From Candidatus Thorarchaeota archaeon (GTDB lineage: Archaea; Asgardarchaeota; Thorarchaeia; Thorarchaeales; Thorarchaeaceae), in the NCBI GenBank assembly GCA_048882045.1, contig JBHLRZ010000018.1, positions 1,886 through 65,885 on the forward strand: 64,000 nucleotides of DNA, in the 5' to 3' direction. Shown piece after piece: positions 11,802 to 45,468 of the stretch (position 1 is the first letter of the stretch; each line of letters opens with the position of its first letter). The notes beneath the pieces were generated by a model, which had not been told where the DNA came from, searched no databases, and saw only the letters and a list, made by a program, of their open reading frames with translations. Made by a program: the position numbers and the translations under genes.

Positions 11802-11825
11802 ATCAACACCTCACTTCATATGTAT

Positions 11826-11845
11826 AAAACTGACTAGTCGGTTTA
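11826..11845. promoter_or_regulatory. Palindromic operator-like site AAAACTGACTAGTCGGTTTA immediately upstream of tetR, overlapping a TATA-like box
   Basis: Near-perfect inverted repeat (8/10 per half-site). The identical 19-mer recurs at 13335..13353. Confidence 0.55.
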
Positions 11846-11911
11846 ATATAAATCTTCTGTCCAAGGAGGGAGTAATGCCCCTGACATCTCAGGGGCAACA
11901 AAATAAACACC

Positions 11912-14366: not shown

Positions 14367-14492
14367 TGGAGATAATGAGTCCTAAACCATCCTTTGAATC
14401 TTCGAAGATGGTGAAACTGAGCAAAACTGCACAATCTGAAAGTTCTTTAGTTGGACATAATCAGCCCGTTGATTCAAGGACAGTAAACCAAA

Positions 14493-29972: not shown

Positions 29973-32117
29973 CTATTTTCGCTTGATTACAAAGACAACA
30001 AACAGTACCGCAACCACAGCTCCAATCCCAATCAATCCAAGTGTAAGTACGTCAGGGCTCGTAAGCCCTCCGTCTGTTGATGTCGGAGACTCGGTTCCAG
30101 TCGGGATTGTGGTAGTACTTGTAGTTATTGTTTCTGTAGTTGTTTCAGTTGTGGTGAATCCTTCCACAGTGACTTCAACATGATCTGAAACAGTGTTTCC
30201 AGCACTATCAAGCAGAACGATTGTAAAGGTATATGTTCCAGAACTCAAGTCATCAAGTGAGTATTCAATCTGAGTCATTTCTAAACTCCAAATACCGACT
30301 TCTACAGAAATACCATCCTTCAAGATTTCATAGCTGAGTGGATTTAGGTCATAGACATTCCAGACAATGGAAAAACCAATTTCTCCCTCTTGGAAGACTA
30401 TATCCTCTGGGGAATCAACAGATGGAATAGTCGTGTCCACTACTGAGATAGTAAGGACATGTGAAACATAGTTATCAGAGGGATCATATGCTCTAACTTC
30501 GATGTGGTATACATCTAAACTCAATGGGATAGTATTCTCCATTAATCCGTCATTGATTATGAAATCGCTGCTGTTTACCCACCACCTATTGATGCCATAG
30601 TAATCCGTAGCAAACAGCTGATAGGATAATGAGGACCCACTCTCAATGATTTGGTCCTCTGGAGTTTCTACCCATTCTGGACTCGTGGTATCGTGGATAT
30701 TCACAATCACCTCATCAGTTGTTGAGATTCCACTGAGAGTTGAAACAGAAACAGAATATGTGTAGGTCCCAGGATCTAGATCAAAGAAGGGAGTTGAAAC
30801 ATTTCTTCCATCCCAAGTATCCTCTTGGAGGATGTCACTGTTCAAAGAAATAGAGAAGCAACATGGTCGGAATGCAGATGCTGACCAATCGATGACACCA
30901 CTTGCTGGTGCTTCGAGAATCAAGTCAACTGGTGAGCTTAGGTAGAGTATGTACCGAGGATCATTATCCGAACTACCTCGATCTCCAGAGATCTTGTATG
31001 TCGAGGTTCCAGTATAATCTGACCAAGCATTTGTATCCCAATTATTCACCAGACCTTTGATAGGTCCTCCAACGAAATCTATTGCATTTGATCCAGAACT
31101 GAATCCAATCTCGTTGTAATGTACTGATGCACCAGTAACTCCGATTAGGTATAAACCAACTCCCGAGTTCTTAAAGACAGTATTATTAAGAATCGAAATG
31201 TCCTGACTGTCCTTCAGATGGATTCCGTAATCAGAATTTAATCTGACATTGTTTGACTGGAGAGTCCCCGTATTAACCTCATAGAGTGATATTCCAGACT
31301 TGTTTTTGATTAGTTCAGAAGATGTGACATTGCAGTCTTGAGAATAGGCGATATAAACACCATATTGGGAGTATTGAACTAGGTTGCTTTCAGACGTGCA
31401 TCGCAGACCATTGTGGAAGTAGATACCGAATATTGCACTCATTACATCATTTGAATAGGTGATGGCTTCAACACTATTGATGATAAGAATGCCATAATCA
31501 CTGTCATCAATTACATTGTTTGCTATATCTGTATAATCTGTCTTTGAAAGATGGATTCCGTAGTCAGATTTCTTGATGTCATTACCTTTTACTGATATCC
31601 AAGTGGATTGTGTAATGTATATACCAGTTCCAAGCCTCGAGAACCTGTTGTTTTCGAATTTGCCTGTTTCCGATTTCTGAACAGAAATTCCAGCAGCGAG
31701 GAAATGGATGTAGGAATTATTTACTACCCCGTTAGTCACCTTTTCGAGGTAGATACCTGTACCAGTCTTATCATCCCAGGATGTCAGTTCACAGTTCTCA
31801 ATAACAAAGAAAACCGATGTGGAAACTATGCTGATGCAAGGATTATCAAACCAGCCATTATTGATTAGAAGATCCTTGATCAAGTAGGGAGATACCTTGG
31901 ACCCATTTCCCTCAAAACCAAGATCCTTGAAGTCATTATCACTGGATATTGAGATTGGAGCATGAGGTGTCAATGACGGGGAATACAACTTGTCGGATGG
32001 AGGACTGGATTCAAGAACCGTTGAGAAGGGGGCTAATGTTAGGGAGAGAGAAAAGAGAATAACAATACTGATACAAATAGCAAGAATTCTTCCTCTACAG
32101 GTCACTCTTTTCTGCAA
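29973..32117 (-). CDS. Secreted surface protein with right-handed parallel beta-helix (PbH1) repeats, Ig-like domains, Thr-rich linker and C-terminal TM anchor
   Basis: Repeats of the type NNVIDDSDYGILIINS and NNTVFKNSGVGLYLIG. A TTTETTTETITTSTTTIPTGTESPTSTDGG linker, then TM and KRK. Confidence 0.7.
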   Translation of the reverse strand: MQKRVTCRGRILAICISIVILFSLSLTLAPFSTVLESSPPSDKLYSPSLTPHAPISISSDNDFKDLGFEGNGSKVSPYLIKDLLINNGWFDNPCISIVSTSVFFVIENCELTSWDDKTGTGIYLEKVTNGVVNNSYIHFLAAGISVQKSETGKFENNRFSRLGTGIYITQSTWISVKGNDIKKSDYGIHLSKTDYTDIANNVIDDSDYGILIINSVEAITYSNDVMSAIFGIYFHNGLRCTSESNLVQYSQYGVYIAYSQDCNVTSSELIKNKSGISLYEVNTGTLQSNNVRLNSDYGIHLKDSQDISILNNTVFKNSGVGLYLIGVTGASVHYNEIGFSSGSNAIDFVGGPIKGLVNNWDTNAWSDYTGTSTYKISGDRGSSDNDPRYILYLSSPVDLILEAPASGVIDWSASAFRPCCFSISLNSDILQEDTWDGRNVSTPFFDLDPGTYTYSVSVSTLSGISTTDEVIVNIHDTTSPEWVETPEDQIIESGSSLSYQLFATDYYGINRWWVNSSDFIINDGLMENTIPLSLDVYHIEVRAYDPSDNYVSHVLTISVVDTTIPSVDSPEDIVFQEGEIGFSIVWNVYDLNPLSYEILKDGISVEVGIWSLEMTQIEYSLDDLSSGTYTFTIVLLDSAGNTVSDHVEVTVEGFTTTETTTETITTSTTTIPTGTESPTSTDGGLTSPDVLTLGLIGIGAVVAVLFVVFVIKRK

Positions 32118-32457: not shown

Positions 32458-34641
32458 ATGTTGAAGGAGTTCAACTATGATATACCGAAGATTGAGCGTG
32501 GATATGCAAATCAGACGCTCTATGTGAATCTAGGCAGCAAAGAAATCAAAATCAAACCTGTTGATGACAAGATGAAGGAAACCTTCACAGGAGGGAAGGG
32601 TTTCGATCTGTGGCTCATGTGGAACGCCCTGCCCAAAGACCGGATTGTCAAATGGGATGACGAAGAGAACGTGATATGCATAGCGACTGGACCTCTCGGG
32701 GGAGTGACCCAGTACCCTGGTGCAGGTAAATCGATAGTCACTTCAATTTCCCCAACAACTGGGATTGCAATAGACAGCAATGTGGGAGGATATGCTGGTC
32801 CAAACCTGAAGTTTGCAGGTTTTGACGCAATGGAGATTCAGGGCAAGGCAGAGAAAGACATCTACATCTTTATTGATGGAGACCATGGTAAGATTGAGAT
32901 TCACGATGCAGAAGACCTCCCGGATACCGCATATGAAATTACCCGAGTCCTTTCTGAGCGGCACACCGAGAAGGAGGGAAAAGATATGGCTGTCGTGACA
33001 TCTGGTCCTGCAGCAGAACACGCTTGGATGGGTTGCCTGAACTTCAGCTGGTGGGATATGAGGCGGAATATTCCGCGGTACAAACAGGCGGGAAGGGGAG
33101 GAATTGGGACTGTCTTTAGGAATAAGAAGATCAAGGCAATCGTGATGAAGAAGGAAAAGATCACTCTCGATATGAATGGACCAGCAGACATAGATGCCAT
33201 CAAGGAAGTTGGTCGCGACCACTCTGGCGAGATTCTTGAGCTAGACAAAGTACAGAACAGAATGAGAGTGATTGGTACTGTACACCTTCCATCCATTATG
33301 GATGAGTTCGACCTTCTTCCAACTCGTAACTTTAGGACAGGCAGTGACCCTGAGGCAAAGAACATCTTTGGTGAGGTCTGGGAGGAGATATTCACCAATT
33401 CTGGCAAGGGCTGGGACGGATGCTGGAGACCCTGTGCGATCAACTGCTCACACTGCATCGAAGGATTCGTTCCTAAGACTGGGCCATTCAAAGGCAAGAA
33501 CGTTCTCGTAGATGGGCCAGAGTATGAAACAATTGCTGGCTGTGGGTCCAACCTTGGGATTTTCGACCCACACTATGTTGCTGAGTTGAATTTTTACTGC
33601 GATGCGTACGGGATTGACACCATTAGCTTCGGTACGACCATGGGTTTCGTCATGGAGCTCTTTGAAGAGGGTCACATTGACGAGAAGGCAACAGGAGGCC
33701 ACAAACTCCAGTGGGGAGCTTCTGAAGAAACTCTCGCGATATTGCATGAGATGGCTGAAGGCAAAGGCTTTGGTGCTGAGCACTTCGGGAAGGGAAGCCA
33801 CTATCTCAAGGGATACTTCGGTGACAAGTTCGGTGTCGACAAACAAGTAATGCAGGACATAGCTATGGAACATAAGGGCCTTGAGTACTCAGAGTATGTA
33901 ACGAAAGAGAGTCTTGCGCAGCAGGGTGGGTACGGTCTCACGCTGAAAGGACCACAGCATGATGAGGCTTGGTTGATCTTCATGGATCAGGTTCATAATT
34001 ACATTCCAACCTTTGAGGACAAGGCAGAGGCGCTTCATTACTTCCCAATGTGGCGTACATGGTTTGGGCTCAATGGACTCTGCAAGCTGCCTTGGAACGA
34101 TGTTGTACCAGCGGACAACGCAGACACTGATGAACCAGCCAAGGTCCCTGGGCATGTGGCATTCTACGCAAGGTTCTTCGAAGCCATGACAGGAAAGCCC
34201 ACAAAGGGAGATGACCTGATTACAATGTCCGAGAAGGTCTACAATTTCCAGAGGATATTCAATATCCGACAAGGGAAGGGTCTCAGAATACACGATTCGT
34301 TCATACCCTATAGGAGTGCGGGACCAGTGACTGACTGGGAGTACGAGTCAAGGGCTGACCGTTATGATGAGCAGCTCAAGGAGATGGGTGTGGACATCTC
34401 AGGAATGAACACCTCTGAGAAGAACAAGAAGCTTCGTGAGTATAGAGAGGAGCAGTATCGACTCCTTACTGATGCAGCCTACAAACGAAGAGGTTGGACT
34501 CGAAATGGTGTTCCCACTATGGACAATGTGAAGAAGCTGGGAATCGATTGGATTCCAGAAGTCATAGACATTGTGAAGAAGTATGAAGGAACAGAACCGC
34601 CTAAGGAAACACTACCAGCCTCTGATGAAGCTTGGAAATAG
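32458..34641 (+). CDS. Aldehyde:ferredoxin oxidoreductase (AOR) family tungsten/molybdopterin enzyme (long, 727 aa; GAPOR/FOR-like size)
   Basis: AOR N-terminal domain (NLGSKEIKIKPVDDKMKETFTGGKGFDLWLMWNAL), a Cys cluster (DGCWRPCAINCSHC), and the C-terminal motif DAYGIDTISFGTTMGFVMELFEEG. Confidence 0.8.
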   Translation: MLKEFNYDIPKIERGYANQTLYVNLGSKEIKIKPVDDKMKETFTGGKGFDLWLMWNALPKDRIVKWDDEENVICIATGPLGGVTQYPGAGKSIVTSISPTTGIAIDSNVGGYAGPNLKFAGFDAMEIQGKAEKDIYIFIDGDHGKIEIHDAEDLPDTAYEITRVLSERHTEKEGKDMAVVTSGPAAEHAWMGCLNFSWWDMRRNIPRYKQAGRGGIGTVFRNKKIKAIVMKKEKITLDMNGPADIDAIKEVGRDHSGEILELDKVQNRMRVIGTVHLPSIMDEFDLLPTRNFRTGSDPEAKNIFGEVWEEIFTNSGKGWDGCWRPCAINCSHCIEGFVPKTGPFKGKNVLVDGPEYETIAGCGSNLGIFDPHYVAELNFYCDAYGIDTISFGTTMGFVMELFEEGHIDEKATGGHKLQWGASEETLAILHEMAEGKGFGAEHFGKGSHYLKGYFGDKFGVDKQVMQDIAMEHKGLEYSEYVTKESLAQQGGYGLTLKGPQHDEAWLIFMDQVHNYIPTFEDKAEALHYFPMWRTWFGLNGLCKLPWNDVVPADNADTDEPAKVPGHVAFYARFFEAMTGKPTKGDDLITMSEKVYNFQRIFNIRQGKGLRIHDSFIPYRSAGPVTDWEYESRADRYDEQLKEMGVDISGMNTSEKNKKLREYREEQYRLLTDAAYKRRGWTRNGVPTMDNVKKLGIDWIPEVIDIVKKYEGTEPPKETLPASDEAWK

Positions 34642-34680
34642 ACAGAAGTGTATCCTGTTTCTCAGAAGGTTCAGAGGAAA

Positions 34681-35421
34681 TTAAATTCCTCTTACCTGTA
34701 ATCTCTTCCAATATAGGACTCCTATGATGGCTATTTCAATTGCAATCCCAAATATAATTAAAATTTCCAATGGAGCGATTGGTAAAACTCCATAGATTGG
34801 GTCATAGGAATCAAGATTGCATTCAACAAGTTCCCGTGTAGATGCTGAGGAAGACCCATCACCCCATTGAGAACATACACGTTTTATTAGAACACCATAG
34901 TGGATATCGTAGTAATAGAAATGATAGTGGGCGGAATCTGAGCTGTAGTCTTTTCGAGCAACCCAGCAGGTGAAATCACCTGCTTCTGTTTCAATGTTTC
35001 GGGATGCGGATATAATTTCACAGATGCCTTCACCTGGAATGGTTACATTTCCATTCCTAGACCAATGAGAAACATTCATCCAAAGTGGGTGTAGAGGTCC
35101 AAAATCAGCTCCCACAGAATCCACAGCATACCACTCAGGTAAAGTAACCTCAGCTTCTTCCGTACCGTCATCATCAGTTATCTGTAATGAAATGATTGAA
35201 TCTTTTGTAATCCAACCATTGACGAAATAATCGTATGCTCTGAGGTTTCCTGTACTAGCTCCAAATTGTTGATAGGCTTCATATTTCAAATTAAGTCCGA
35301 TTGGAAATTCAGGAGATTCGATAGCATGAGCCGTATGAAGTGGTACAAAACAAGTAAGAATCAAGACACCGAACAATAGTATACATGAGTGTCCCATCCT
35401 TCGAACCCCACTCATCCTCAT
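34681..35421 (-). CDS. Small secreted anchored protein, member of the EFPIG/DFPIG paralog family (C-terminal Glu-containing TM)
   Basis: Signal peptide, then AIESPEFPIGLNLKY. The LPEWYAVD block resembles 38318..39031. C-terminus: APLEILIIFGIAIEIAIIGVLYWKRLQVRGI. The ORF is open up to 35454 (GTG). Confidence 0.6.
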   Translation of the reverse strand: MRMSGVRRMGHSCILLFGVLILTCFVPLHTAHAIESPEFPIGLNLKYEAYQQFGASTGNLRAYDYFVNGWITKDSIISLQITDDDGTEEAEVTLPEWYAVDSVGADFGPLHPLWMNVSHWSRNGNVTIPGEGICEIISASRNIETEAGDFTCWVARKDYSSDSAHYHFYYYDIHYGVLIKRVCSQWGDGSSSASTRELVECNLDSYDPIYGVLPIAPLEILIIFGIAIEIAIIGVLYWKRLQVRGI

Positions 35422-35467
35422 GTGACATACTCTTGAGTGGAAATAAATCCTCACTTTTCTTCAAAGA

Positions 35468-35641
35468 GATGTTGCAGCATACACGCAACGAGGTTGGACA
35501 CGGAATGGTGTGCCCACTATGGGCAAGGTGAAGAAACTGGGTTTTGACGGGATCTCTGAGGTGATAGACATTATGAAGAAGCATGAAGGAACAGAACCTC
35601 CGAAGGAAACACTACCAGCCTTTGATGAAGCATGGAAATAG
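35468..35641 (+). pseudogene. Remnant of an AOR gene 3' end (last ~55 codons), about 82% nt identity to 34477..34641
   Basis: Translates in frame to …RGWTRNGVPTMGKVKKLGFDGISEVIDIMKKHEGTEPPKETLPAFDEAWK*, against …RGWTRNGVPTMDNVKKLGIDWIPEVIDIVKKYEGTEPPKETLPASDEAWK* for the intact gene. Confidence 0.8.
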
Positions 35642-35775
35642 AAGCAGATGTAAGAGGAGTATAATACCAACCCTCACCTTTCTAATCTTTATTAGATAGG
35701 AATGTCAGTGGATAGTGTAATTTTGTACTGAAAAATATCCTGGACTCCGATAAACAATCATAAGGATAGTCATGG

Positions 35776-36747
35776 ATGGCGGAATCCTTTTTGCTAACCA
35801 CGCACTCTTTTATGCGGGCATTCGCAATGCGGAGCATTATCAAAGGATTATCATTCTTTATACTCATTCTTCTACTACTAACTTCACCTACAGATATGCT
35901 GACTGAAAAAGCCAGAACTGTGAGATATATCACAGCAGGAGGGTCAGTATCAACTTCAGATCCTTACGGATTTATCAAAATAAGGGGTGGAGAATATATT
36001 GTTAAAAACGGTGTCTGGGGAGCAGAAACCTCACAGACAGTAACTGTACCAGACACCGATGTTTGCAAATTCAGTGTGACACATTCAGAACACTCTCAAG
36101 ACCATGTTGCTTCTTACGCATCTATCGGCAAAGGTTCTTGTTGGAGTCTGACAACTTCAGGTTGGAAATCAATACTCATCAATGATCTTGAATATGTGTC
36201 TTTCAATTGGAGTGTAAATAATTATCGTCCATCTGGAGTATATTGTATTATGGCTGAATCTTGGTTCAGCTCAAGGCTTGACACAAGCTCGGGTTACTCT
36301 GGCGGAGGGGAACTGCTGATTTGGCTTGATACACAAGGGATGGTTCCAGGGGGAAGTAAGGTCGGTGATTTCGGTTCTTATGAAGTCTGGTACGACTTAG
36401 TTGATCATAACTACATATGTTATCACATGACCGGACAAAACTCAGCTGAGATTAACCTCCTTGACTTCATCAATGATGCTGTAAGTAGGGGATATCTCAA
36501 CTCAACATGGTATTTACATGATATTGAAGCTGGATTTGAAATCTGTAGTGGGGGTGAGGGGCTCCTGCTTGAGTCATTCAATGTTTCAGTCAAAGAAAAT
36601 ACATCAGCTACATCTTCATCAGCTACATCAACTACATCTTCATCAACCACATCAGCGGAGTTTCCTGACATTTTACTAAATCTAGGAATCAGTGGACTGC
36701 TGGTTATAGTTATTATACTGATTGTACTAAAACTCAAGAAAAAGTGA
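35776..36747 (+). CDS. Glycoside hydrolase family 12-like endo-beta-1,4-glucanase with signal peptide, Ser/Thr-rich linker and C-terminal TM anchor
   Basis: GGGELLIWLDTQGMVPGGSKVGDFGSYEVWYD and IEAGFEICSG align to the GH12 catalytic blocks (YELMIWL…PIGS…TWELWYG … QFGTEPFTG). Linker TSATSSSATSTTSSSTTSAE, then TM and KLKKK. Confidence 0.7.
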   Translation: MAESFLLTTHSFMRAFAMRSIIKGLSFFILILLLLTSPTDMLTEKARTVRYITAGGSVSTSDPYGFIKIRGGEYIVKNGVWGAETSQTVTVPDTDVCKFSVTHSEHSQDHVASYASIGKGSCWSLTTSGWKSILINDLEYVSFNWSVNNYRPSGVYCIMAESWFSSRLDTSSGYSGGGELLIWLDTQGMVPGGSKVGDFGSYEVWYDLVDHNYICYHMTGQNSAEINLLDFINDAVSRGYLNSTWYLHDIEAGFEICSGGEGLLLESFNVSVKENTSATSSSATSTTSSSTTSAEFPDILLNLGISGLLVIVIILIVLKLKKK

Positions 36748-36774
36748 GATCAGGCAGCAATTGATGACATCAGA

Positions 36775-36816
36775 TGGGAAACACTACCCGCATCGGGTAG
36801 AGCATGGAATTAATGA
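36775..36816 (+). pseudogene. Second, shorter remnant of the AOR 3' end (…ETLPASGRAWN*)
   Basis: GGAAACACTACC is shared exactly with the AOR gene end. The in-frame translation ETLPASGRAWN* compares with ETLPASDEAWK*. Confidence 0.5.
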
Positions 36817-36860: not shown

Positions 36861-37670
36861 CTATCCTTTGTCTGTTGATTGTTTCCATACACAAAACAGC
36901 ACTATGATCATACACTCAATAACTATTCCAGCACTGAGAATGACATTAATGTCCATCGAAGGCGGCTCAGTTCTTGAAGTGGGACTAGTTGTATAGGTTG
37001 TTGAGGTAGTGGTGGTGGTTGGAATGGTAGTGGTTGTAGTTGTTTGAAGCAGCGGAGCATAGTTGTGAAGATTGGTATCCATGAGGAAAAGATCCGATTT
37101 TTCAAACGGAGAACTTCCGTCAGTGCTGTTCGTTTCTCTGTCGTAGTCTACTAATATTCCAAGAAATGAATGATACCCGAGCATTGTTTTGATAACAAGA
37201 TTGCCACTCTGCGTTTCGTTCCAAAGGAGGAACCACTCATAGGATCCCTCTGCTGTTGATGTGAGACCCGTATGATGAACTACGTAGTTAATTCCAGAGA
37301 ATTCGTACATATCGTCGATTTCCCAATATGCAACATTTCTCCATATTGGGGGATTCCCTGGAATATCGATATGAACATCGTGGAGAGGTTGAACTAAAGT
37401 CGTTGTATCGCCATCATGATTTCTCGAATATTCAACAACTCTGTTTAGTTCGTCAATCCAACTCGTGAAATCGTAAGTGATGTCATATTCATAATCTGGA
37501 TAGTCATAGGGATCATCGATGTACACAGCGATATTGTAATGCATATGCAAACCAATTGGAAAGTCATCACCTTGGGCATCTACAATTGGACAAGTAATAG
37601 AGCCTATTAGAAGTAGTGCGATGATTATTGACAGGAGTGTATCCCCCAGGCTTTTTGACATCCTGACCAC
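36861..37670 (-). CDS. Small secreted anchored protein, DFPIG paralog family
   Basis: Signal peptide, then AQGDDFPIGLHMHYNI…YEYDITYDF. Thr-rich linker. C-terminus: PSMDINVILSAGIVIECMIIVLFCVWKQSTDKG. Confidence 0.65.
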   Translation of the reverse strand: MVRMSKSLGDTLLSIIIALLLIGSITCPIVDAQGDDFPIGLHMHYNIAVYIDDPYDYPDYEYDITYDFTSWIDELNRVVEYSRNHDGDTTTLVQPLHDVHIDIPGNPPIWRNVAYWEIDDMYEFSGINYVVHHTGLTSTAEGSYEWFLLWNETQSGNLVIKTMLGYHSFLGILVDYDRETNSTDGSSPFEKSDLFLMDTNLHNYAPLLQTTTTTTIPTTTTTSTTYTTSPTSRTEPPSMDINVILSAGIVIECMIIVLFCVWKQSTDKG

Positions 37671-37837
37671 CCATTTTCTAATTGAATATCATCCTTAAGC
37701 GTGATATACCTTGTCAATTCGATTTCTCTTTCTATGGGAATAGGGATTTGTCTGGTATCACCCATTTCTACCTTTCAACTAGTTCGAATAAAGCAACTAT
37801 CAAAGGATTCTTTACGCTAAAACGCTAAAGATTTCAG

Positions 37838-38227
37838 TTGATTAAAATGAAAACAGTAGGTTATTTCGACGGTACAGATTCGATTCTTCTCACAAAATTA
37901 GCAGCACAGGGTTTCTGTACAGTCCCGCTTGGAAACGAAATGGATGGTTATGGGAAAATTGCATCTTTCATAGAACCTGGTGCAGTGGACATTATAATTG
38001 CCTACCTTCACAAATTACTACCGCCCCATAAGGACGACAAGAGGGTCATTCCAACCCCAGTGAATCTTCTTCATGCAGCCAATTCATATAACATACCAAT
38101 ATTCGTTATAGTCCCAAAGGAGCTACACAAGGAAGCTAAGAAGCAACTAGGAGAGGCTGCGGATTTTGTTAGAATGGTGACTCCTGAAGATCTTGAAGAA
38201 GAAGTCCGCAAGGAACTGAAAATCTAG
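37838..38227 (+). CDS. Small cytoplasmic protein of unknown function (129 aa)
   Basis: Non-hydrophobic ORF with alternating alpha/beta character, sitting between family members. No motif I recognise. Confidence 0.4.
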   Translation: MIKMKTVGYFDGTDSILLTKLAAQGFCTVPLGNEMDGYGKIASFIEPGAVDIIIAYLHKLLPPHKDDKRVIPTPVNLLHAANSYNIPIFVIVPKELHKEAKKQLGEAADFVRMVTPEDLEEEVRKELKI

Positions 38228-38317
38228 TATCCCTGCGTGAACAAGCTTTGGTTAAAAAGAAGCAGACCAAAAAAAGACCAACTTTGACCAATCTAATCGT
38301 AGGTCATGTCAACTCCT

Positions 38318-39031
38318 CTACTCTCTAAAACGGTATGCTATCAGGTAAACTATAACAACAATTTCGACGAGGAAACCAAATAGGTAAGACACTGGAATAT
38401 TAGAGTCATTAAGTCCTTGATCAGTAATAGTAAATTCAACTTCGCCAGGATAGTACATCAATTGGATTGTATACACTGTGCTGTTAGGGTATCTAGTATG
38501 ATAGTCATATTGTCTGATGCGGTTTGTTTGAGAATCATAGAAAAGATTCTCGGAGATGATAAATCCTACATCAGGAGTCGTCCTGTTTATCGCCACCATG
38601 TCAAATGAAACATAATTAACTGAGAAGTTGAACAACCAAGAATCAGGATCCGTGAAGACCATACCTGATTCGAATGCTGATACATCTAGCCATATAGGAC
38701 AGTATGGCCACCTTTCTACGATGTTCCCCTCAGTGTCAACTACAGCCCACTCTGGAATCCTAAGACGATACTCTTGAATTGCAGAGTTGTTGGTCACTTT
38801 GATTACTGCAATCCCGTCAGTGGGGGACCAGACATCAACTTCAAACTTCACGTAAGTAGCCCAATCTCCACTACTGTGGTAGTATTCATAGTAGGCAGTC
38901 TTCCCGGGATAAAGAGTACCCGATACTGGTTGAATCAGTGTTATTGTAAGAGTCAGACATAGTAGCGTTATTGGAATGATCAGATTTCTGGGAAATTGCC
39001 TGGGTCTTCTAAATGTCGTACAATACCTCAA
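38318..39031 (-). CDS. Small secreted anchored protein, distant member of the family (no Thr linker)
   Basis: A TTG start at 39031 gives the signal peptide MRYCTTFRRPRQFPRNLIIPITLLCLTLTITLIQPVSG. The IPEWAVVD block matches 34681's LPEWYAVD. C-terminus: FGFLVEIVVIVYLIAYRFRE. The ORF is open to 39193 but would then overlap the upstream gene by 136 nt. Confidence 0.5.
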   Translation of the reverse strand: MRYCTTFRRPRQFPRNLIIPITLLCLTLTITLIQPVSGTLYPGKTAYYEYYHSSGDWATYVKFEVDVWSPTDGIAVIKVTNNSAIQEYRLRIPEWAVVDTEGNIVERWPYCPIWLDVSAFESGMVFTDPDSWLFNFSVNYVSFDMVAINRTTPDVGFIISENLFYDSQTNRIRQYDYHTRYPNSTVYTIQLMYYPGEVEFTITDQGLNDSNIPVSYLFGFLVEIVVIVYLIAYRFRE

Positions 39032-39057
39032 GACTGACTCCTCAAATTCATCTTCTA

Positions 39058-39900
39058 TCACACTTCCTTCTTCTTTCGAGTATATAGTATCCATACAATG
39101 ACTAGCTCCACGACTATTGATGCGAGAATGACTACATCGAGAGTAGGTAATGTGAATTGCTGAGAAGTGGTGGTGGTGGTTCTCGGAGGCCAAATGGAAG
39201 ATGTTTGAGTAGTCGTAGTAGTTGAAGTAGGAGTGGGAGTCGGAGGTATGAATTCTTCGATATTTCCAGACACAAGTTCAAAGATGCCTTGGCCATAGAG
39301 TTGGTTTTCCAAAGGGAGACTTGCATTAATGTATTCGATTATGCCTATTATCGCCATTCCCGAAAACGAGTCATAGTAGACATAAGTCAAGTTACGCAGA
39401 TCACCGAATCCCCAAAAATACTCCAGTTCGTAACAATCATACCCTGAATCATAATCAAGGTGTATATAGTCGATGACCCAATGGTTTCTACTTCCTATGA
39501 CATAGGGTTCTCCCAGAGTGACCTGAGACACATCAATCCAAAGTGGCCACAGGAACAACCCTGGTAGCTCTAGAAAACTATTAGGAAATTCTGCAACATA
39601 TGTGTGGTTATACTCACTGAGTATGGATGTGCTAGGTTGATAGGTCACATTACTGAAACAATTGAATTTGATTTCTACCAAATCTGCATCGTAATCTATC
39701 CACCTTGTGAAGTTGTATCTATATGTGAGAGTTTCAGAAAAATTGCCTATGTAACTCTCGTATTCCCAATAGTAGTCAAGAAATAGACCCACTGGTAACT
39801 GATTGGTTTGAGCAAAGGTGTTAGTAGTGAAATTGGCTGAAAGAAGTCCAAGAATAATTGTCAGCACAACAATACTGTGTTTCCTATACTTTCGCCACAT
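39058..39900 (-). CDS. Small secreted anchored protein, paralog family
   Basis: Signal peptide, then AQTNQLPVGLFLDYYWEY…YRYNFTRWIDYD. Linker PTPTPTSTTTTTQTSS…TTTTTSQQ. C-terminus: PTLDVVILASIVVELVIVWILYTRKKKEV. Confidence 0.65.
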   Translation of the reverse strand: MWRKYRKHSIVVLTIILGLLSANFTTNTFAQTNQLPVGLFLDYYWEYESYIGNFSETLTYRYNFTRWIDYDADLVEIKFNCFSNVTYQPSTSILSEYNHTYVAEFPNSFLELPGLFLWPLWIDVSQVTLGEPYVIGSRNHWVIDYIHLDYDSGYDCYELEYFWGFGDLRNLTYVYYDSFSGMAIIGIIEYINASLPLENQLYGQGIFELVSGNIEEFIPPTPTPTSTTTTTQTSSIWPPRTTTTTSQQFTLPTLDVVILASIVVELVIVWILYTRKKKEV

Positions 39901-39938
39901 CTTACCTCACTATTTTCACTTCAAATCTTGATAGCAAG

Positions 39939-40748
39939 CTACTCCTTTCGTTTCAAAAACGTCAATATGATGACAAGTTCTACAAATATTGCCGCTACAA
40001 AAACTATGTCTAAAGTAGGAATTTGATATGATTCCGTTGTTGGTGTCGTAGTAGGAGGTGTGGTAGGAGGTGTGGTCTGTCCTGGGGATGTAGTAGACGT
40101 TGGTGATGTGGGATCAGTGGTTGGGATTGTAGTTGTTTGAGTTGTTGGAATGACGAAATCAGGAGGATTGAAAACATTGAAGTTTCCTGAAAGAACGAAT
40201 GAGCTGTATATTCTCGACCAGTTTCCAGATACGCTTGTTTCCCAATGTGTATAATCAAGTAACAATCCTAATTGTGTGTGATAATACAGGTCTGTTGCAT
40301 TCTCCCATCCATCTTGTTCAAGGATGTACTCAAGTCGGAAACATTCAACGTCGCCAAATGTACCCATGAAATGGTCCACAATTTGGATGATTTGATATTG
40401 AATTCCTGAAATCTGAATAACATGATATAGGTCCCACGTTGAAACATCCATCCAAAGATATGGTTGCTCAGCTAAAGGAAGACGAACCTCGAGGAAAGAC
40501 TGGTTATAATTCACGGAGTCTCTTTCATATTCTAGCTGCAGAGTGCTCAGGTTGGTCCATCGAATGAAATCGTATGTAATCTCGTATTCTGGAATCTCAG
40601 GAGTGTATTGAAAGAATACATTTGTGATGTAAAGAAGATTCATCCCGATAGGAAAGTCATCACGTTGAGCATCGGTGGGCATAACCCACACACTAAGAAG
40701 AAGGATTCCAAATACAAAAGCCACAACAGCAGTCTCTCCCTTCCTCAA
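39939..40748 (-). CDS. Small secreted anchored protein, DFPIG paralog family
   Basis: AQRDDFPIGMNLLYI…YEITYDFIRW. Pro/Thr-rich linker. C-terminus: PTLDIVFVAAIFVELVIILTFLKRKE. Confidence 0.65.
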   Translation of the reverse strand: MRKGETAVVAFVFGILLLSVWVMPTDAQRDDFPIGMNLLYITNVFFQYTPEIPEYEITYDFIRWTNLSTLQLEYERDSVNYNQSFLEVRLPLAEQPYLWMDVSTWDLYHVIQISGIQYQIIQIVDHFMGTFGDVECFRLEYILEQDGWENATDLYYHTQLGLLLDYTHWETSVSGNWSRIYSSFVLSGNFNVFNPPDFVIPTTQTTTIPTTDPTSPTSTTSPGQTTPPTTPPTTTPTTESYQIPTLDIVFVAAIFVELVIILTFLKRKE

Positions 40749-40865: not shown

Positions 40866-42128
40866 ATGACAATGGAAGGGGAAGTAAAAACAAAGAAGAA
40901 TTCGAAAAAAGAAGTGGGCCTTTGGGTCTATCTCGTCTTTTTCGTGGGTTTATTTTTGATATGTATAGCTTTTTCTCTGGCAGGTGTTTCGACCATTCAA
41001 GAAATCTCACTTACGCATATTTCGTCATCTATATTCTTCTCCCTGTTGGGTGTAATCTTCCTGATGTGCTGGATGTTAGTCCCGCCAGAATCTGAAGAGT
41101 CAAAACAGAGAAGGAAAGAGGAACGAGAGCAGCGTAGACAAGCTGAAATCGCGAGATTCAGGAAAGCGGAAGAGGCACGACGTGAGGCTTTGGATCGCAG
41201 GAGAAGGAGACTCGTCGATGAGACAGTTGTCAGAAGAGGTTATCCATCGACGGCAAAGAAACCGATACCGGGTATAACTCATGCCCTATCAGATGTCAGG
41301 AGAGTTCCACCTACCAAGACTACTGAGGGAGTCGAGGTTAGAAGAGGTGGTGAATTCATTGGGAACCGAATGAGGTTCAAGGTCAAGGTTCTCAACGACT
41401 CCTCTTACATTATAACTGATGTCACAGTGTATCTCTTGTCGTATCCAAAGGATGCCCTGAGGTTCGCAGGAGAAGATCATGACATTTTCTTCGCCAAGAT
41501 AGAACCTGGGGGTTTCAGAAGCCCTACATTTGACTTTCTCCCGACCCAAGATTGCGTAAAGGGAGAGATTGTTGCAGGTGTTTCATACATGGATATGCGT
41601 GGTCAACCTCATACTCTCACAGCAAAGCCGTTTGTTATCCGCTCTGTATGCGATCTATTGTTGCCTCAACAAGTGACACCAGAAGACTTCAAGTTGAAAC
41701 TCAAAGATCTTGAATGCGGAGAGATTGCCATCAAAATAGAAGAGTGGACACCAAAGGAGATGTTCGAGAAATCATTGAGAATTGTTGATGAGTCAAACTT
41801 CTTCGAAGTAAGTAGTCACTCAGAAGAAACAGATGGTGTATTCTTTGGGAAGATTGTTGGCTTTGCGAAAGGGAAATACACAGGAAAGGATGTGGGAGTG
41901 GAGATCACGGTAACCGGACCAGTCGGAGTCAAAGGATCTTCTTGCACAATCCAAGTGTCTGGAGAAGACCAAGCGATGATTTTGCCTGCAATCGATGACC
42001 TACGTGAACGTCTGAGTGCATGGCTATGTCCGATGTGCTCAAGTCCCTTGCCCATAGCGAATGTTGAAGACTTGCGTAAAGGCAACGTCGTGAAATGCCA
42101 ATTCTGTGGAGTTTCGATTGGTCGATAG
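40866..42128 (+). CDS. Membrane-anchored protein (2 N-terminal TM, basic coiled-coil-like segment, conserved ~280-aa domain, C-terminal CPxC…CxFCG zinc ribbon); paralog 1 of 3
   Basis: Conserved blocks: RRGGEFIGNRMRFKVKVLNDSSY, IEPGGFRSPTFDFLPTQDCVKGEIVAGVSY, FVIRSVCDLLLP, GKYTGK, IQVSGEDQAMILPAIDDLRERLSAWLCPMCSS…KCQFCGVSIGR. Confidence 0.7.
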   Translation: MTMEGEVKTKKNSKKEVGLWVYLVFFVGLFLICIAFSLAGVSTIQEISLTHISSSIFFSLLGVIFLMCWMLVPPESEESKQRRKEEREQRRQAEIARFRKAEEARREALDRRRRRLVDETVVRRGYPSTAKKPIPGITHALSDVRRVPPTKTTEGVEVRRGGEFIGNRMRFKVKVLNDSSYIITDVTVYLLSYPKDALRFAGEDHDIFFAKIEPGGFRSPTFDFLPTQDCVKGEIVAGVSYMDMRGQPHTLTAKPFVIRSVCDLLLPQQVTPEDFKLKLKDLECGEIAIKIEEWTPKEMFEKSLRIVDESNFFEVSSHSEETDGVFFGKIVGFAKGKYTGKDVGVEITVTGPVGVKGSSCTIQVSGEDQAMILPAIDDLRERLSAWLCPMCSSPLPIANVEDLRKGNVVKCQFCGVSIGR

Positions 42129-42144
42129 GATTCTGTTGAAACGG

Positions 42145-43341
42145 ATGATTATCATGTCACAACAAACTCGGAAACAAGAATCGCAAGCGGAATTTGAATC
42201 CGAGTTTGAAAAAGATAAACCTGTAAATGTTGTAGTACTCGGAGTATGTTTCATTATAATTGTAGTAACAACTATGGTTGTGTTGGTTACGGTCTACTCT
42301 GTACCTTTTACGTTTGAGCAATATATGGTGGTTGTGGCAATTGTTGTTTGCTTTACTTTGGTTTGCTATTGTGCGAAATATTATCCCTTAGATGATAAAA
42401 TATCAGATGGGGAAAGCATGGAGCAACACTACCTGAAAGCAAGAGATACCGCACGGACATATGTTAGACCAAAGAAACCAATCCCGGGAGTAATCAAAAG
42501 TATTGCACCAGTCAAACCTCCACCTACAAAGAGAGAGAACTTGGTCAAAGTTCTCAGAGGTGGTGAGTTCATAGGAAACCGTATGAGGTTCAAAGTGAAG
42601 GTCATCAACGATTCTTCATTCATCCTCTCTGATGTCACAGTATATTTGTTGTCCTACCCAAATGATGCACTCCGTTTCGCAGGGGAAGAAAATCATGTCT
42701 TCTTCTCAAAGATTGAACCAGGAGGTTTTAGAAGCCCAACATTCGACTTCCTACCTACTCAAGATTGTGTCAGAGGAGATATTGTTGCAGGCGTTTCGTA
42801 CATTGACGAGAGGGGAAATCCAAAAGCTCTAACAACCCGTCCGTTTGTGATTCGTTCTGTTTGCGACCTTCTTTTGCCTGAGCAAGTGACACCAGTGGAT
42901 TTCGAGCTCAGATTGAAGGATTTGGAATGTGGTGAAATCACTGTAAAGATTGAAGAATGGACTCCCCAAGAGATGTTTGACAAAGTACTTCGTATCTTGG
43001 ATGAGTCAAATTTCTATGAAGTGAAGAGTGAACTGAAAACAATCGATGAAGTTGTATTTGCTGAGATATCTGGATATGCAAAGGGAAAATACACGGGCAA
43101 GAATATTGCAGTCGAGATTAGTGTGACAGGGCCTGAACGAGTCAACGGTGCTACTTGCAAGATTCAGGTTTCTGGGGAGGACCAAGCAATGATTCTCCCA
43201 GCTATTGATGACCTACGTGAGAGACTGAATGCATGGCTTTGTCCTCAATGCAACAGCTCATTGACACTGGAAAATGTCGTGAATCTTAGGAGAGGAGAAG
43301 TGGTACAATGTCCCTTCTGTGGCATCTCTATAGGACGCTGA
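42145..43341 (+). CDS. Paralog 2 of the membrane-anchored Zn-ribbon protein family
   Basis: About 75% identical to paralog 1 across the conserved domain. Ends CPQCNSS…QCPFCGISIGR. N-terminal anchor is divergent. The frame is open from a GTG at 42106 that overlaps paralog 1. Confidence 0.7.
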   Translation: MIIMSQQTRKQESQAEFESEFEKDKPVNVVVLGVCFIIIVVTTMVVLVTVYSVPFTFEQYMVVVAIVVCFTLVCYCAKYYPLDDKISDGESMEQHYLKARDTARTYVRPKKPIPGVIKSIAPVKPPPTKRENLVKVLRGGEFIGNRMRFKVKVINDSSFILSDVTVYLLSYPNDALRFAGEENHVFFSKIEPGGFRSPTFDFLPTQDCVRGDIVAGVSYIDERGNPKALTTRPFVIRSVCDLLLPEQVTPVDFELRLKDLECGEITVKIEEWTPQEMFDKVLRILDESNFYEVKSELKTIDEVVFAEISGYAKGKYTGKNIAVEISVTGPERVNGATCKIQVSGEDQAMILPAIDDLRERLNAWLCPQCNSSLTLENVVNLRRGEVVQCPFCGISIGR

Positions 43342-44355: not shown

Positions 44356-45468
44356 ATGCAAGTAGAAGGAGCTTTGTTATCCATTGCGGCGTTCATTATC
44401 ATCTTCGCCGTCATTGTATTTGCGCTATACATCTGTGGGTCATCAGATGATGATATAATGCTCACCAGTCAAGAGAGAGGATATATACCACAGAGTGTTC
44501 GACATGAGTTTCCAATTCTAGGTCAACGATCTGAAGATTATGGAGGACGAGCAAGAGAACAGATCTTGAGGGATTACTTACCAACGAAACGCCCAATCGC
44601 AGGTGTATCAAGAGCTGTCACTGTTTTGAAGAGACCTCCTGCAATGGATGACATAAAAGCTAAGAAGACCGTTGAAGTCAGAAGAGGTGGGGAGTTCATA
44701 GGGAACCGGATGCGTTTCAAAGTAAAAGTGTTGAATAACACAGAGTACACTATTACTGATGTCACAGTGTTCCTTATCTCATATCCAACTGAAACATTAA
44801 GGATTGATGCAAGTGAGCATTCCACTCGTTTTCCCAAGATCGAGCCTGAGGGATTCAGAAGTCCGACATTCGATTTCCTACCGACCCAGGACTGTGTGAA
44901 GGGAGAGATTGTCGCTGGTGTATCATACATCGACTACAGGGGGACTCCTCATTCACTCAATACCAAACCTTTCACTATACGTTCAGTCTGTGATTTATTG
45001 ATGCCCGATAAAATCACAGCTGAAGACTTTGAGCTCAAATTGAAGGATCTAGAATGTGGGGAATTGATCGTAAAGGTAATTGATTGGACTCCTTCCGAGA
45101 TGTTTGACAAGTCACTGAGAATTCTAACAGATGCCAATTTCTATGAAGTCAGCAGTGAGATGACTGAGAATGATGGCATCACATACGCTACAATAACTGG
45201 ATTCGCAAAGGGGAAGTATACAGGAAAACAGGTAGCAGCCAAGATTGCTATCACTGGTCCAGCTGGAAAACCTGGGGCATCTTGTACCATACAAGTATCA
45301 GGCGAAGATCAAGCAATGATACTGCCTGCCATTGATGATCTGAGAGAACGACTCAGTGCGTGGATGTGTCCCAATTGCTCTAGTCCGATTTCTATAGAGA
45401 ATGTAGAGAAACTCAGAGAGGGTAAAATTGTGACATGTCTCTTCTGTGACGCTTCAATTGGAAGATAG
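44356..45468 (+). CDS. Paralog 3 of the membrane-anchored Zn-ribbon protein family (single N-terminal TM)
   Basis: Same conserved domain (RRGGEFIGNRMRFKVKVLNNTEY … CPNCSSPISIENVEKLREGKIVTCLFCDASIGR). Confidence 0.7.
   Translation: MQVEGALLSIAAFIIIFAVIVFALYICGSSDDDIMLTSQERGYIPQSVRHEFPILGQRSEDYGGRAREQILRDYLPTKRPIAGVSRAVTVLKRPPAMDDIKAKKTVEVRRGGEFIGNRMRFKVKVLNNTEYTITDVTVFLISYPTETLRIDASEHSTRFPKIEPEGFRSPTFDFLPTQDCVKGEIVAGVSYIDYRGTPHSLNTKPFTIRSVCDLLMPDKITAEDFELKLKDLECGELIVKVIDWTPSEMFDKSLRILTDANFYEVSSEMTENDGITYATITGFAKGKYTGKQVAAKIAITGPAGKPGASCTIQVSGEDQAMILPAIDDLRERLSAWMCPNCSSPISIENVEKLREGKIVTCLFCDASIGR

What the first reader, a model, noticed from the sequence alone, without database searches (positions are those of the whole stretch)
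34477..36816. Serial remnants of the AOR gene 3' end bracket two small gene cassettes
The last ~165 nt of the AOR gene (…GTEPPKETLPASDEAWK*) recur about 1 kb downstream at 35468..35641 with ~82% identity, in frame and ending in a stop. They recur again as a ~40-nt relic at 36775..36816 (ETLPASGRAWN*). Each copy is followed by a different gene: the minus-strand anchored family member 34681..35421, then the GH12-like glucanase 35776..36747. Decreasing similarity with distance is what successive site-specific insertions into the 3' end of AOR would produce. In that model each event supplies a new intact 3' end and displaces the old one, as integrative elements do when they target tRNA or protein-gene 3' ends. 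No integrase is present in the window. This could therefore reflect an old, decayed integration hotspot, a cassette-exchange mechanism, or partial AOR duplication and deletion.
Basis: seen in the sequence. Interest (0 to 1): 0.6.

Follow-up and report, generated by a model that had tools for sequence, protein, structure and literature searches.

The report
Serial relics of overwritten AOR gene ends
Downstream of a conserved aldehyde:ferredoxin oxidoreductase (AOR) gene in a Thorarchaeota (Asgard archaeon) genome lie two leftover copies of the gene's own 3' end, most likely scars of repeated gene imports from related archaea that each overwrote the gene's end and pushed the old end downstream, with no sign of an integrase.

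Summary
The last 171 nt of AOR plus its stop recur exactly 1000 nt downstream (145/173, 84%). A 36-nt relic (28/36) follows the GH12 gene, and random 64-kb sequences never exceed 25/36.

Copy 1 and copy 2 differ by 17 synonymous and 11 nonsynonymous changes (dN/dS about 0.13). They therefore diverged mainly as functional gene ends in different lineages, not by duplication and decay in place.

Comparison with 115 related AOR loci shows:
- The stretch after AOR is a hypervariable island, mostly of membrane-anchored proteins.
- At least 12 other lineages carry AOR 3' relics there, with start points from about -18 to beyond -200.
- L053 and L026 form an occupied/empty pair: GH12 arrived together with a replaced AOR tail and left an approximately 20-nt relic.
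- L110 shares only its AOR tail, terminator and GH12 with L053.
- No integrase was found near any locus.

Best explanation: serial displacement by recombination anchored in AOR with an illegitimate distal joint (HFIR-like). This resembles rhs and T6SS effector-immunity arrays in bacteria. This is a new member of a known kind, of moderate interest.

The parts
32458..34641 (+). Intact aldehyde:ferredoxin oxidoreductase (AOR) gene, 727 aa. It is the conserved left anchor of the variable island.
   Evidence: Pfam AFOR_N E 3e-51 and AFOR_C E 6e-87. Orthologues at 73-91% aa identity in about 55 Thorarchaeota genomes.
34470..34642 (+). Copy 1: the current, functional 3' end of AOR (last 56 codons plus stop). 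Inferred to be the most recently imported end.
   Evidence: Repeat family D1. Its 6 differences from the orthologue consensus all fall at variable positions.
34674..34691 (+). Hairpin GAGGAAATTAAATTCCTC after the AOR stop. Inferred AOR terminator, overlapping the fam1 stop codon.
   Evidence: Read from the sequence. Comparable GAGGAG...CTCCTC hairpins followed by a T-rich run lie after the AOR stop in many orthologous loci. Function is inferred.
34681..35421 (-). fam1: 246-aa protein with a signal peptide and a C-terminal membrane anchor. It is the cargo of the latest event and a diverged paralogue (22-31% identity) of four genes at 36861-40748.
   Evidence: No Pfam hit. Paralogue alignment. 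No homologue other than itself among 5.8e9 proteins.
35470..35642 (+). Copy 2: the displaced former 3' end of AOR (171 nt plus stop), now non-functional.
   Evidence: 84% identical to copy 1. dN/dS 0.13, with about 9 copy-2-specific replacements at positions invariant in orthologues. Colinear with the AOR end, terminator and GH12 of L053.
35643..35775 (+). Former AOR terminator region (AGAGGAGTATAATAC...) plus the GH12 upstream region.
   Evidence: Aligns base for base with the AOR-to-GH12 intergenic region of L053 and L084.
35776..36747 (+). GH12-like glycoside hydrolase with a Ser/Thr-rich linker and a C-terminal anchor. It is the cargo of the earlier event.
   Evidence: PF01670 E 6e-11. About 89% nt identical to L053 GH12 over 35776-36600, although the copy-1 AOR tail is only about 72% identical to L053's. 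Lies directly after AOR in L053, L084, L085/L086 and L110.
36760..36774 (+). 15-nt relic (ATTGATGACATCAGA, IDDIR) of a p411/p420-family gene 3' end. It was carried in with the GH12 block.
   Evidence: Window-L085 homology runs to 36774. In L085 the same bases, 12 nt after the GH12 stop, begin a 45-codon p411-like 3' fragment.
36777..36813 (+). Copy 3: the oldest AOR 3' relic (last 11 codons plus stop, ETLPASGRAWN*).
   Evidence: 28/36 to copies 1 and 2. Chance maximum 25/36 in 300 random windows.
36861..37670 (-). fam2: anchored-family gene that followed AOR before the two imports. The order relic, fam2-like, p129 is also seen in L024.
   Evidence: Synteny table. L024 ORFs.

Best explanation
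AOR is the conserved left border of a hypervariable island that mostly encodes membrane-anchored proteins in Thorarchaeota.

Proposed mechanism. DNA from diverged relatives enters the island by recombination. The left end is a homologous crossover inside AOR. The right end is an illegitimate, non-homologous joint. This is homology-facilitated illegitimate recombination (HFIR), producing 'sequential displacement'. Each event overwrites the resident AOR 3' end with the donor's, brings in the donor's downstream gene, and strands whatever lay to the right of the distal joint. When that joint falls inside the resident AOR 3' end, a truncated relic remains.

Inferred history of the window:
1. In a donor lineage, GH12 settled after AOR and truncated a p411-like gene. 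L085 preserves this state.
2. An AOR-end / terminator / GH12 block carrying 15 nt of that p411 relic was joined at -36 of the resident AOR. This left copy 3 in front of fam2.
3. An AOR-end (copy 1) / terminator / fam1 block was joined at -171 of the then-resident end. This left copy 2.

What is shown and what is inferred:
- Shown: the repeats, their coding-type divergence, the colinear blocks, and the occupied/empty and mosaic comparisons in relatives.
- Inferred: the enzymology (host RadA-type recombination plus end-joining or microhomology), the order of events, and where each event took place.
For: 1. Divergence pattern. Copy 1 versus copy 2 shows 17 synonymous and 11 nonsynonymous differences (pS 0.45, pN 0.085, dN/dS about 0.13). 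About 9 of the nonsynonymous changes are copy-2-specific hits at positions invariant in orthologues. Most divergence therefore accrued while both were functional gene ends in separate lineages. The same signature appears elsewhere:
- L028: 9 synonymous, 0 nonsynonymous, 1 nonsense.
- L035: a 28-nt relic whose 4 differences are all synonymous.

2. Colinear block. Window 35467-36614 is one HSP with L053 12013-13180, covering the AOR end, terminator and GH12. Identity is 65% in the AOR part and about 89% in the GH12 body.

3. Occupied/empty pair. L053 and L026 are about 91% identical across AOR and downstream. L053 carries a 1126-nt GH12 insert directly after the AOR stop.
- The L053 AOR is 98% identical to L026 over 11500-11899.
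- It shows 9, 15 and 30 mismatches per 100 nt in the last 280 nt.
- That tail lies in the top 3% of 239 windows.
- After GH12 sits an approximately 20-nt relic of the old AOR end.

4. Mosaic. The L110 AOR body is about 73% identical to L053. Its last 100 nt are 89% identical, and the following GH12 85-93%.

5. Recurrence. Relics recur on the same strand downstream of AOR in L006, L007, L020, L024, L028, L035, L048, L051, L053, L054, L094/L105 and L095, and each has a different 5' limit.

6. Other truncated genes. Other plus-strand genes in the island survive as 3' portions, as a left-anchored process predicts: p411 in L054 and L085, p370 in L063, p420 in L022.

7. No integrase.

8. Known mechanism and outcome in bacteria: PMC5361080 and the HFIR papers it cites.
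Against: - No relative closer than about 80% nt identity was found for the window's lineage. The crossover inside the window's own AOR upstream of copy 1 could therefore not be mapped. Which copy is 'donor' is inferred by analogy with L053/L026 and L110.
- Microhomology at the window's distal joints cannot be assessed without the donor sequences.
- For the fam1 event alone, integration of a circularised fragment by a single homologous crossover would give the same structure.
- HFIR has, to my knowledge, been demonstrated experimentally only in naturally transformable bacteria, and DNA uptake routes in Asgard archaea are unknown.
- L051 and L054 carry internal AOR fragments rather than 3'-terminal ones. 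These need an extra deletion or a different origin.
- The integrase screen has limits. It covered only ORFs of at least 150 aa that lack a window homologue, within 7 kb.
Confidence: 0.7

Rival explanations
1. Campbell-type insertion. A fragment (AOR 3' end plus neighbouring gene) loops out or circularises. It then integrates by a single homologous crossover within the AOR 3' end, duplicating the homologous segment. The direct repeats would then allow repeated excision and reinsertion without a dedicated recombinase.
For: The window's copy 1 and copy 2 are equal-length direct repeats flanking a 1000-nt unit that holds one gene with its own upstream 48 nt. The foreign-allele signature is equally expected under this model.
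Against: In L053 the imported AOR tail is at least 190 nt long, but the relic is only about 20 nt. The L035 relic is 28 nt and copy 3 is 36 nt. Unequal arms are not what a single crossover produces unless deletions followed. No circular form or junction has been seen.
Confidence: 0.13
2. Site-specific integration. Integrative elements with an integrase target an att site in the AOR 3' end and carry their own copy of it. The integrases were later lost.
For: Serial, same-strand relics that all reach the stop codon, together with a restored intact gene end, are what tRNA- or gene-3'-end-targeting elements leave.
Against: - No integrase or recombinase was found among the intervening genes.
- None was found among 66 representatives of ORFs within 7 kb downstream of AOR in 57 loci.
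- Relic 5' limits are scattered from -18 to beyond -200.
- Left junctions are crossovers at different positions.
- Cargo is a single ordinary island gene.
- No AOR-tail fragment was found in 2.9 million viral contigs.
- Other island genes are truncated in the same manner.
Confidence: 0.07
3. Local origin. This means a tandem duplication of AOR (or of its 3' end with a neighbouring gene) followed by deletion and neutral decay, or the capture of a fragment from a paralogous AOR elsewhere in the genome.
For: The island is full of paralogues (fam1-5, several p420/p411/p370-like genes), so duplication is active here. L051 and L054 carry internal AOR fragments.
Against: - dN/dS of 0.13 lies far below the roughly 0.5 expected if one copy had been a pseudogene since the duplication. 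That would predict about 35 nonsynonymous differences, against 11 observed.
- Copy 1 and copy 2 are as diverged as orthologues from different species.
- No second full AOR exists in any of the 115 loci.
- Copy 2 is colinear with an AOR-terminator-GH12 block that exists as the live arrangement in other genomes.
Confidence: 0.05

Closest known systems
Sequential displacement of T6SS effector-immunity modules in Vibrio cholerae, and C-terminal displacement at rhs loci (Kirchberger et al. 2017, PMC5361080; Jackson et al. 2009 as cited there)
   Same: A conserved upstream gene part serves as the homologous anchor. The incoming module replaces the 3' part and shifts the old 3' end and downstream genes backwards. 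Successive events build strings of orphaned 3' fragments. No integrase is involved, and HFIR is the proposed mechanism.
   Different: The anchor here is a metabolic enzyme gene whose tail is conserved, not a polymorphic toxin with variable C-termini. The cargo is membrane-anchored proteins and a glycoside hydrolase, not immunity genes, and there is no sign that the relics are reused. The host is an Asgard archaeon.
Homology-facilitated illegitimate recombination in transformable bacteria (de Vries & Wackernagel 2002; Prudhomme et al. 2002; Meier & Wackernagel 2003; cited via PMC5361080)
   Same: A one-sided homologous anchor is combined with an illegitimate distal joint close to the anchor. 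Foreign DNA is inserted and nearby recipient sequence is substituted or left as a stump.
   Different: Those cases are laboratory demonstrations with defined donors. Here the process is inferred from comparative genomics, the uptake route is unknown, and microhomology at the joints was not resolvable.
Flexible genomic islands bounded by conserved genes, and tandem accretion of elements at tRNA/att sites (from my own knowledge of the literature, e.g. work by Rodriguez-Valera and colleagues; not looked up here)
   Same: A hypervariable stretch enriched in cell-surface genes lies next to a conserved gene. Repeated additions at one border leave partial copies of the border sequence.
   Different: Additive tRNA islands are built by integrase-bearing elements with a fixed att core. 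Neither feature is present here.

Membership tests
Integrase-mediated integrative element targeting a gene 3' end | Tyrosine or serine recombinase gene within or next to the inserted DNA | tested here: not met
   Pfam scan of window genes and of genes between AOR and relics in 8 loci found none. PHROG scan of 66 representatives from 57 loci found 24 families, none of them an integrase.
Integrase-mediated integrative element targeting a gene 3' end | Fixed att core, meaning the same repeat boundary or crossover in independent events | tested here: not met
   Relic 5' limits are about -18, -28, -31, -36, -66, -95, -110, -171 and beyond -200. Crossovers lie at about -100 in L110 and about -190 to -280 in L053.
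Integrase-mediated integrative element targeting a gene 3' end | Free element (virus or plasmid) carrying the attP copy of the gene end | tested here: inconclusive
   No AOR-tail fragment was found in IMG/VR viral contigs. Plasmids and unbinned circular contigs were not searched.
HFIR / sequential displacement array | 3' part of the anchor gene is donor-derived, with a recombination breakpoint inside the anchor contiguous with the insert | tested here: met
   L053 versus L026 and L110 versus L053. For the window itself only indirect support is available, namely dN/dS of 0.13, because no close relative exists.
HFIR / sequential displacement array | Truncated remnant of the resident gene lies immediately distal to the inserted DNA, at non-specific positions | tested here: met
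   Window copies 2 and 3, plus relics in at least 12 other lineages. Other plus-strand genes are truncated in the same way.
HFIR / sequential displacement array | Older relics lie further from the anchor and are more decayed | tested here: met
   Copy 2 is 173 nt at 84% identity. Copy 3 is 36 nt at 78%, where copy 2 scores 94% over the same bases. A nested p411 relic lies between GH12 and copy 3.
HFIR / sequential displacement array | Short microhomology at the illegitimate joint | tested here: inconclusive
   In L053 an 11-nt CGATGAAGCTT occurs at both ends of the insert, but this may simply be the relic itself. The window joints cannot be judged without donor sequences.
HFIR / sequential displacement array | Dependence on host homologous recombination and DNA uptake | not testable with these tools
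   This needs genetics in a tractable archaeon or population time series.
Integron-type cassette array | Integron integrase plus attC-like structured sites at cassette ends | tested here: not met
   No integrase was found. Cassette right ends share no sequence. The only recurrent hairpin is the AOR terminator.
Polymorphic toxin / orphan C-terminus array (rhs, CDI) | Variable toxic C-terminal domains, each followed by a cognate immunity gene | tested here: not met
   The AOR tails are conserved in sequence. AOR is an AFOR-family oxidoreductase. The following genes are unrelated to one another and one lies on the opposite strand.
Tandem duplication followed by decay | Copies diverge neutrally after duplication, and relatives retain a full second copy | tested here: not met
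   dN/dS is 0.13. None of the 115 loci has a second full AOR.

The most novel reading that the evidence does not exclude
The AOR 3' end with its terminator hairpin could be a dedicated landing site. Small single-gene cassettes for surface proteins would then be exchanged between Thorarchaeota lineages by a still unidentified, trans-acting, integrase-unlike machinery, in effect an Asgard counterpart of an integron. The direct AOR-tail repeats would allow cassettes to excise and move. My evidence does not exclude a trans-encoded factor elsewhere in the genome. It also does not explain why so many distal joints fall inside the last 200 nt of AOR.
Probability: 0.06. Interest if true: 0.75.

Novelty: new member of a known kind. 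Interest (0 to 1): 0.4.

Why it matters
How Asgard archaea, the closest prokaryotic relatives of eukaryotes, acquire and exchange genes is largely unknown, and none of these lineages can be manipulated genetically. This locus is a readable record of that process. It holds nested scars of at least three import events. Relatives supply an occupied/empty site pair and mosaic AOR genes. Together these show recombination between lineages that differ by 10-25% in nucleotide sequence, anchored in a conserved metabolic gene and delivering cell-surface genes.

The locus offers a concrete place to measure gene flow in Thorarchaeota populations. It also explains why assemblies break here: L024 has a scaffold gap and L028 a contig end at the repeat. 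Finally, it warns annotators that the 40-43-aa ORF in copy 2 is a relic, not a gene. It does not reveal a new molecular machine.

Tried and rejected
- tRNA and Rfam scans of the window found nothing, so there is no RNA-gene att site.
- The viral-contig scan with the AOR tail found nothing.
- A sliding identity profile of the window's AOR against 19 orthologues showed about 80% identity throughout with no drop at 34470. No relative is close enough to map a breakpoint in the window itself.
- Ranking of copy 1 and copy 2 against orthologous tails was indecisive. Each copy's best match is the other copy (84%), then L028 and L007 at about 82%.
- A search for the fam1 donor found no homologue other than fam1 itself.
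- A shared -170/-171 boundary in the window and L028 first looked like a fixed att edge. L028's second copy in fact extends further upstream, so that idea was dropped.
- The similarity of 'AGAGGAGTAT' after several AOR stops looked like a cassette-end motif. It is the AOR terminator hairpin, which is widespread after the AOR stop.
- A search for relics on the upstream side of AOR, around the NosD-like insert, found none.
- The sigma-70 promoter/terminator scan was uninformative for an archaeon.
- L054 versus L023 did not clarify the origin of the internal AOR fragment in L054.

Full report
**1. The observation**

The region was read and all ORFs listed. AOR occupies 32458-34641 and matches Pfam AFOR_N and AFOR_C.

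Exact alignment and the repeat finder agree:
- 34470-34642 recurs at 35470-35642. The match is ungapped, 145/173 identical (84%), and exactly 1000 nt downstream.
- 36777-36812 matches the last 36 nt of both copies at 28/36.

Both longer copies are in frame and end in TAG. The short one reads ETLPASGRAWN*.

The short copy is not a chance match. The next-best 36-mer anywhere in the window scores 22/36, and 300 Markov-1 random 64-kb sequences never exceeded 25/36. No other copy exists in the window.

Between the copies lie two genes:
- A minus-strand gene for a signal-peptide and C-terminal-anchor protein (fam1, 34681-35421, no Pfam hit).
- A GH12-like hydrolase (35776-36747, PF01670).

Four diverged fam paralogues follow.

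The same arrangement was assembled from four sequencing runs and in two NCBI MAGs at 99.92-100% identity. It is not an assembly chimera.

**2. The organism and the neighbourhood**

AOR orthologues at 73-91% aa identity come from Thorarchaeota (Asgard) MAGs. I fetched 74 loci from species-representative genomes and 41 from metagenomes.

Synteny tables show a conserved PEPCK-like gene upstream. In a subset of genomes a NosD/beta-helix surface protein is inserted between it and AOR. Downstream, the interval between AOR and an EamA transporter / 223-aa gene is highly variable. It holds different mixtures of:
- fam genes;
- a 129-aa gene (p129);
- several p420/p411/p370-family genes;
- GH12;
- TPR, GNAT and other genes.

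None of the 115 loci has a second full AOR.

**3. The remnants recur in other lineages**

Scanning every locus with the AOR C-terminus and with each locus's own AOR 3' end found same-strand relics downstream of AOR in many lineages:
- L028: 110 nt or more, 91% identical, running into the contig end.
- L020: 110 nt after p129.
- L007: 31 nt after p129, at the same position as in L020.
- L094/L105: after p129.
- L024: about 95 nt after an unknown minus-strand gene. The AOR itself is interrupted by a 100-N scaffold gap.
- L006: after a TPR gene.
- L048: between two fam genes.
- L095: 16 codons.
- L035: 28 nt, only 51 nt after the stop.
- L051 and L054: internal AOR fragments.

Relics that reach the stop codon end there. 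Their 5' limits all differ, from about -18 to beyond -200.

**4. The copies diverged as working genes**

A Nei-Gojobori count over the 56 shared codons of copy 1 and copy 2 gives 17 synonymous and 11 nonsynonymous differences (pS 0.45, pN 0.085, dN/dS about 0.13). About 9 of the nonsynonymous changes are copy-2-specific and hit positions invariant in all orthologues.

Had copy 2 been a pseudogene ever since a local duplication, roughly 35 nonsynonymous differences would be expected. The pattern instead fits two alleles that diverged under purifying selection in separate lineages to pS of about 0.4. Copy 2 then underwent a short period of neutral decay.

L028 shows the same pattern (9 synonymous, 0 nonsynonymous, one nonsense), as does L035 (4 of 4 differences synonymous).

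Copy 1 and copy 2 are as far apart as orthologues from different species. One of them therefore came in from another lineage.

**5. Natural experiments in relatives**

*(a) A colinear block.* Window 35467-36614 is a single colinear match to L053 12013-13180, spanning the AOR end, terminator hairpin, intergenic region and GH12. The GH12 body is about 89% identical, although the copy-1 AOR tail is only about 72% identical to L053's and copy 2 only 65%. GH12 has therefore moved between lineages recently.

*(b) An occupied/empty pair.* L053 and L026 are about 91% identical through AOR and downstream. L053 has a 1126-nt GH12 insert directly after the AOR stop.
- The L053 AOR is 98% identical to L026 over 11500-11899.
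- Mismatches then rise to 9, 15 and 30 per 100 nt in the last 280 nt.
- That tail is in the top 3% of 239 windows across the 10.7-kb alignment.
- Right after GH12 in L053 comes CGATGAAGCTTTTCGTTAAGAATTACC. This is a relic of the old AOR end plus its downstream bases (compare L026 CTGATGAAGCCTGGATATAGGATTCGC). The GH12 ORF reads into it.

The arrival of GH12 thus replaced the AOR tail and left a stump, at a different joint (-18) from the window's (-36).

*(c) A mosaic AOR.* The AOR body of L110 is about 73% identical to L053 but 82-88% identical to L085. Its last 100 nt are 89% identical to L053, and the adjoining GH12 is 85-93% identical. The AOR tail, terminator and GH12 therefore travelled together, with a homologous crossover about 100 nt before the stop.

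*(d) A nested relic.* In L085/L086, whose AOR is 91-92% aa identical to the window's, AOR is followed directly by GH12. Twelve nt after the GH12 stop comes a 45-codon 3' fragment of a p411-like gene. Window-L085 homology (87%) runs past the GH12 stop to 36774. It includes ATTGATGACATCAGA, the first 15 nt of that same p411 relic, after which the window jumps into copy 3. The window thus carries a stratigraphy of GH12, p411 relic, AOR relic.

*(e) Other truncated genes.* Elsewhere in the island, other plus-strand genes survive as 3' portions (p411 in L054, p370 in L063, p420 in L022). This is expected if replacement proceeds rightwards from the AOR anchor and ends at an arbitrary joint.

**6. 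No integrase**

- Pfam scans of the window genes and of the genes lying between AOR and relics in eight loci found no recombinase.
- I clustered all 295 ORFs of at least 90 aa within 7 kb downstream of AOR in 57 loci into 103 clusters. The 66 representatives of at least 150 aa from clusters without a window homologue were scanned.
- PHROGs gave 24 families, all of which were listed. None was an integrase and one was a transposase.
- The Pfam top 25 of 81 families showed none either.
- No AOR-tail fragment occurs in IMG/VR viral contigs.
- There are no tRNA or Rfam hits in the window.

**7. Mechanism**

The best-supported model is serial displacement by homology-facilitated illegitimate recombination:
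- A homologous crossover occurs inside the conserved AOR.
- Donor sequence then runs through the donor's AOR end, terminator and neighbouring gene.
- An illegitimate distal joint closes the event.
- A joint inside the resident AOR 3' end leaves a relic.

Two such events explain copies 2 and 3. Which enzymes act, how DNA enters the cell, and whether the events happened in this lineage or were inherited or transferred as a block are all inferences.

For the fam1 event alone, a single-crossover (Campbell-type) insertion of a circularised fragment cannot be excluded. It fits poorly elsewhere, because imported tails are much longer than the relics (L053, L035, copy 3).

**8. Comparison with what is known**

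The closest described phenomena are the sequential displacement of T6SS effector-immunity modules in Vibrio cholerae and C-terminal displacement at rhs loci. Both leave strings of orphaned 3' regions and have been attributed to HFIR (PMC5361080, and the HFIR papers cited there).

The differences here are:
- The anchor is a metabolic gene with a conserved tail.
- The cargo is membrane-anchored proteins and a glycoside hydrolase.
- The host is an Asgard archaeon.

It is not a member of the integrative-element, integron or polymorphic-toxin families, because the defining features of each were tested and not met.

**9. Verdict**

- This is a new instance, in Thorarchaeota, of a known evolutionary process.
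- It is useful as a readable record of inter-lineage recombination in Asgard archaea, but it is not a new kind of system.
- Interest is about 0.4.

Noticed in passing
window 34681-35421, 36861-37670, 38318-39193, 39058-39900, 39939-40748 (all minus strand): Five highly diverged paralogues (22-31% aa identity). They share a signal peptide, an FP(I/V)GL..Y motif, a P(L/I)W.(N/D)VS motif, a Thr-rich linker and a C-terminal membrane anchor. None has a Pfam hit. fam1 has no homologue other than itself among 5.8e9 proteins. This looks like a fast-evolving Thorarchaeota surface-protein family.
   Followed up: partly
window 29973-32117 (-): A 714-aa NosD/beta-helix protein with a Thr-rich linker and C-terminal anchor sits between the PEPCK-like gene and AOR. 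It is present there in only a subset of Thorarchaeota genomes (for example L008, L012, L024, L048, L090) and absent in most. This is a second variable slot, on the other side of AOR. No gene relics were found around it.
   Followed up: partly
window 40866-42128, 42106-43341, 44356-45468; L002, L003, L009, L012, L067 and others: The p420, p411 and p370 proteins cluster as one family (single-linkage blastp). p420, p411 and p370 C-terminal queries all hit the same Cys-rich (CPxC...CxFC) 45-codon fragment in L085. The family is present in 2-4 copies per island in many genomes. Its 3' fragments are scattered in the island (L022, L054, L063, L085). Function unknown.
   Followed up: no
window 37838-38227 (+); L004, L007, L011, L014, L020, L022, L051, L052, L063, L087, L089, L093, L094: A conserved 126-129-aa protein (p129, no Pfam hit) is the commonest immediate downstream neighbour of AOR across Thorarchaeota. 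It is often followed by a gene relic (AOR tail in L007, L020 and L094; p370 3' fragment in L063; p420 3' fragment in L022).
   Followed up: partly
L024 11936-12035; L028 contig end at 3606: A 100-N scaffold gap (L024) and a contig end (L028) fall exactly in the duplicated AOR 3' end. The repeat breaks short-read assemblies, so relics are probably under-counted in MAGs.
   Followed up: no
L053 13266-13286: In L053 the GH12 ORF runs into the relic of the old AOR end and terminates there (...NDEAFR*). A few codons of a displaced gene end have thus been co-opted as the C-terminus of the incoming gene.
   Followed up: partly
L053 vs L026, L053 coordinates 10200-10399, 11300-11499, 14460-14720: In addition to the tail, there are short patches of 14-40% divergence within otherwise 95-98% identical sequence. 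This suggests frequent small homologous-recombination imports across AOR and its surroundings.
   Followed up: no
L082/L083 4953-5903: A GH12 gene 83% nt identical to the window's lies in an unrelated context, next to FTR/MCH methanopterin-pathway genes, with homology limited to the ORF. More distant homologues are mostly bacterial (Spirochaetales, Actinomycetes). The gene appears mobile beyond the AOR locus.
   Followed up: no
window 35510-35641 (+): A 43-aa ORF lies in copy 2. A 40-aa version, at about window 35519-35641, is called as a gene in the public assemblies. It is merely the in-frame remnant of the AOR tail and should not be annotated as a protein.
   Followed up: yes
one of the 66 representative ORFs downstream of AOR (locus not identified): A single strong transposase hit (phrog_2199, E 8.5e-63) shows that an IS element sits in the island of one genome. 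I did not determine which locus.
   Followed up: no
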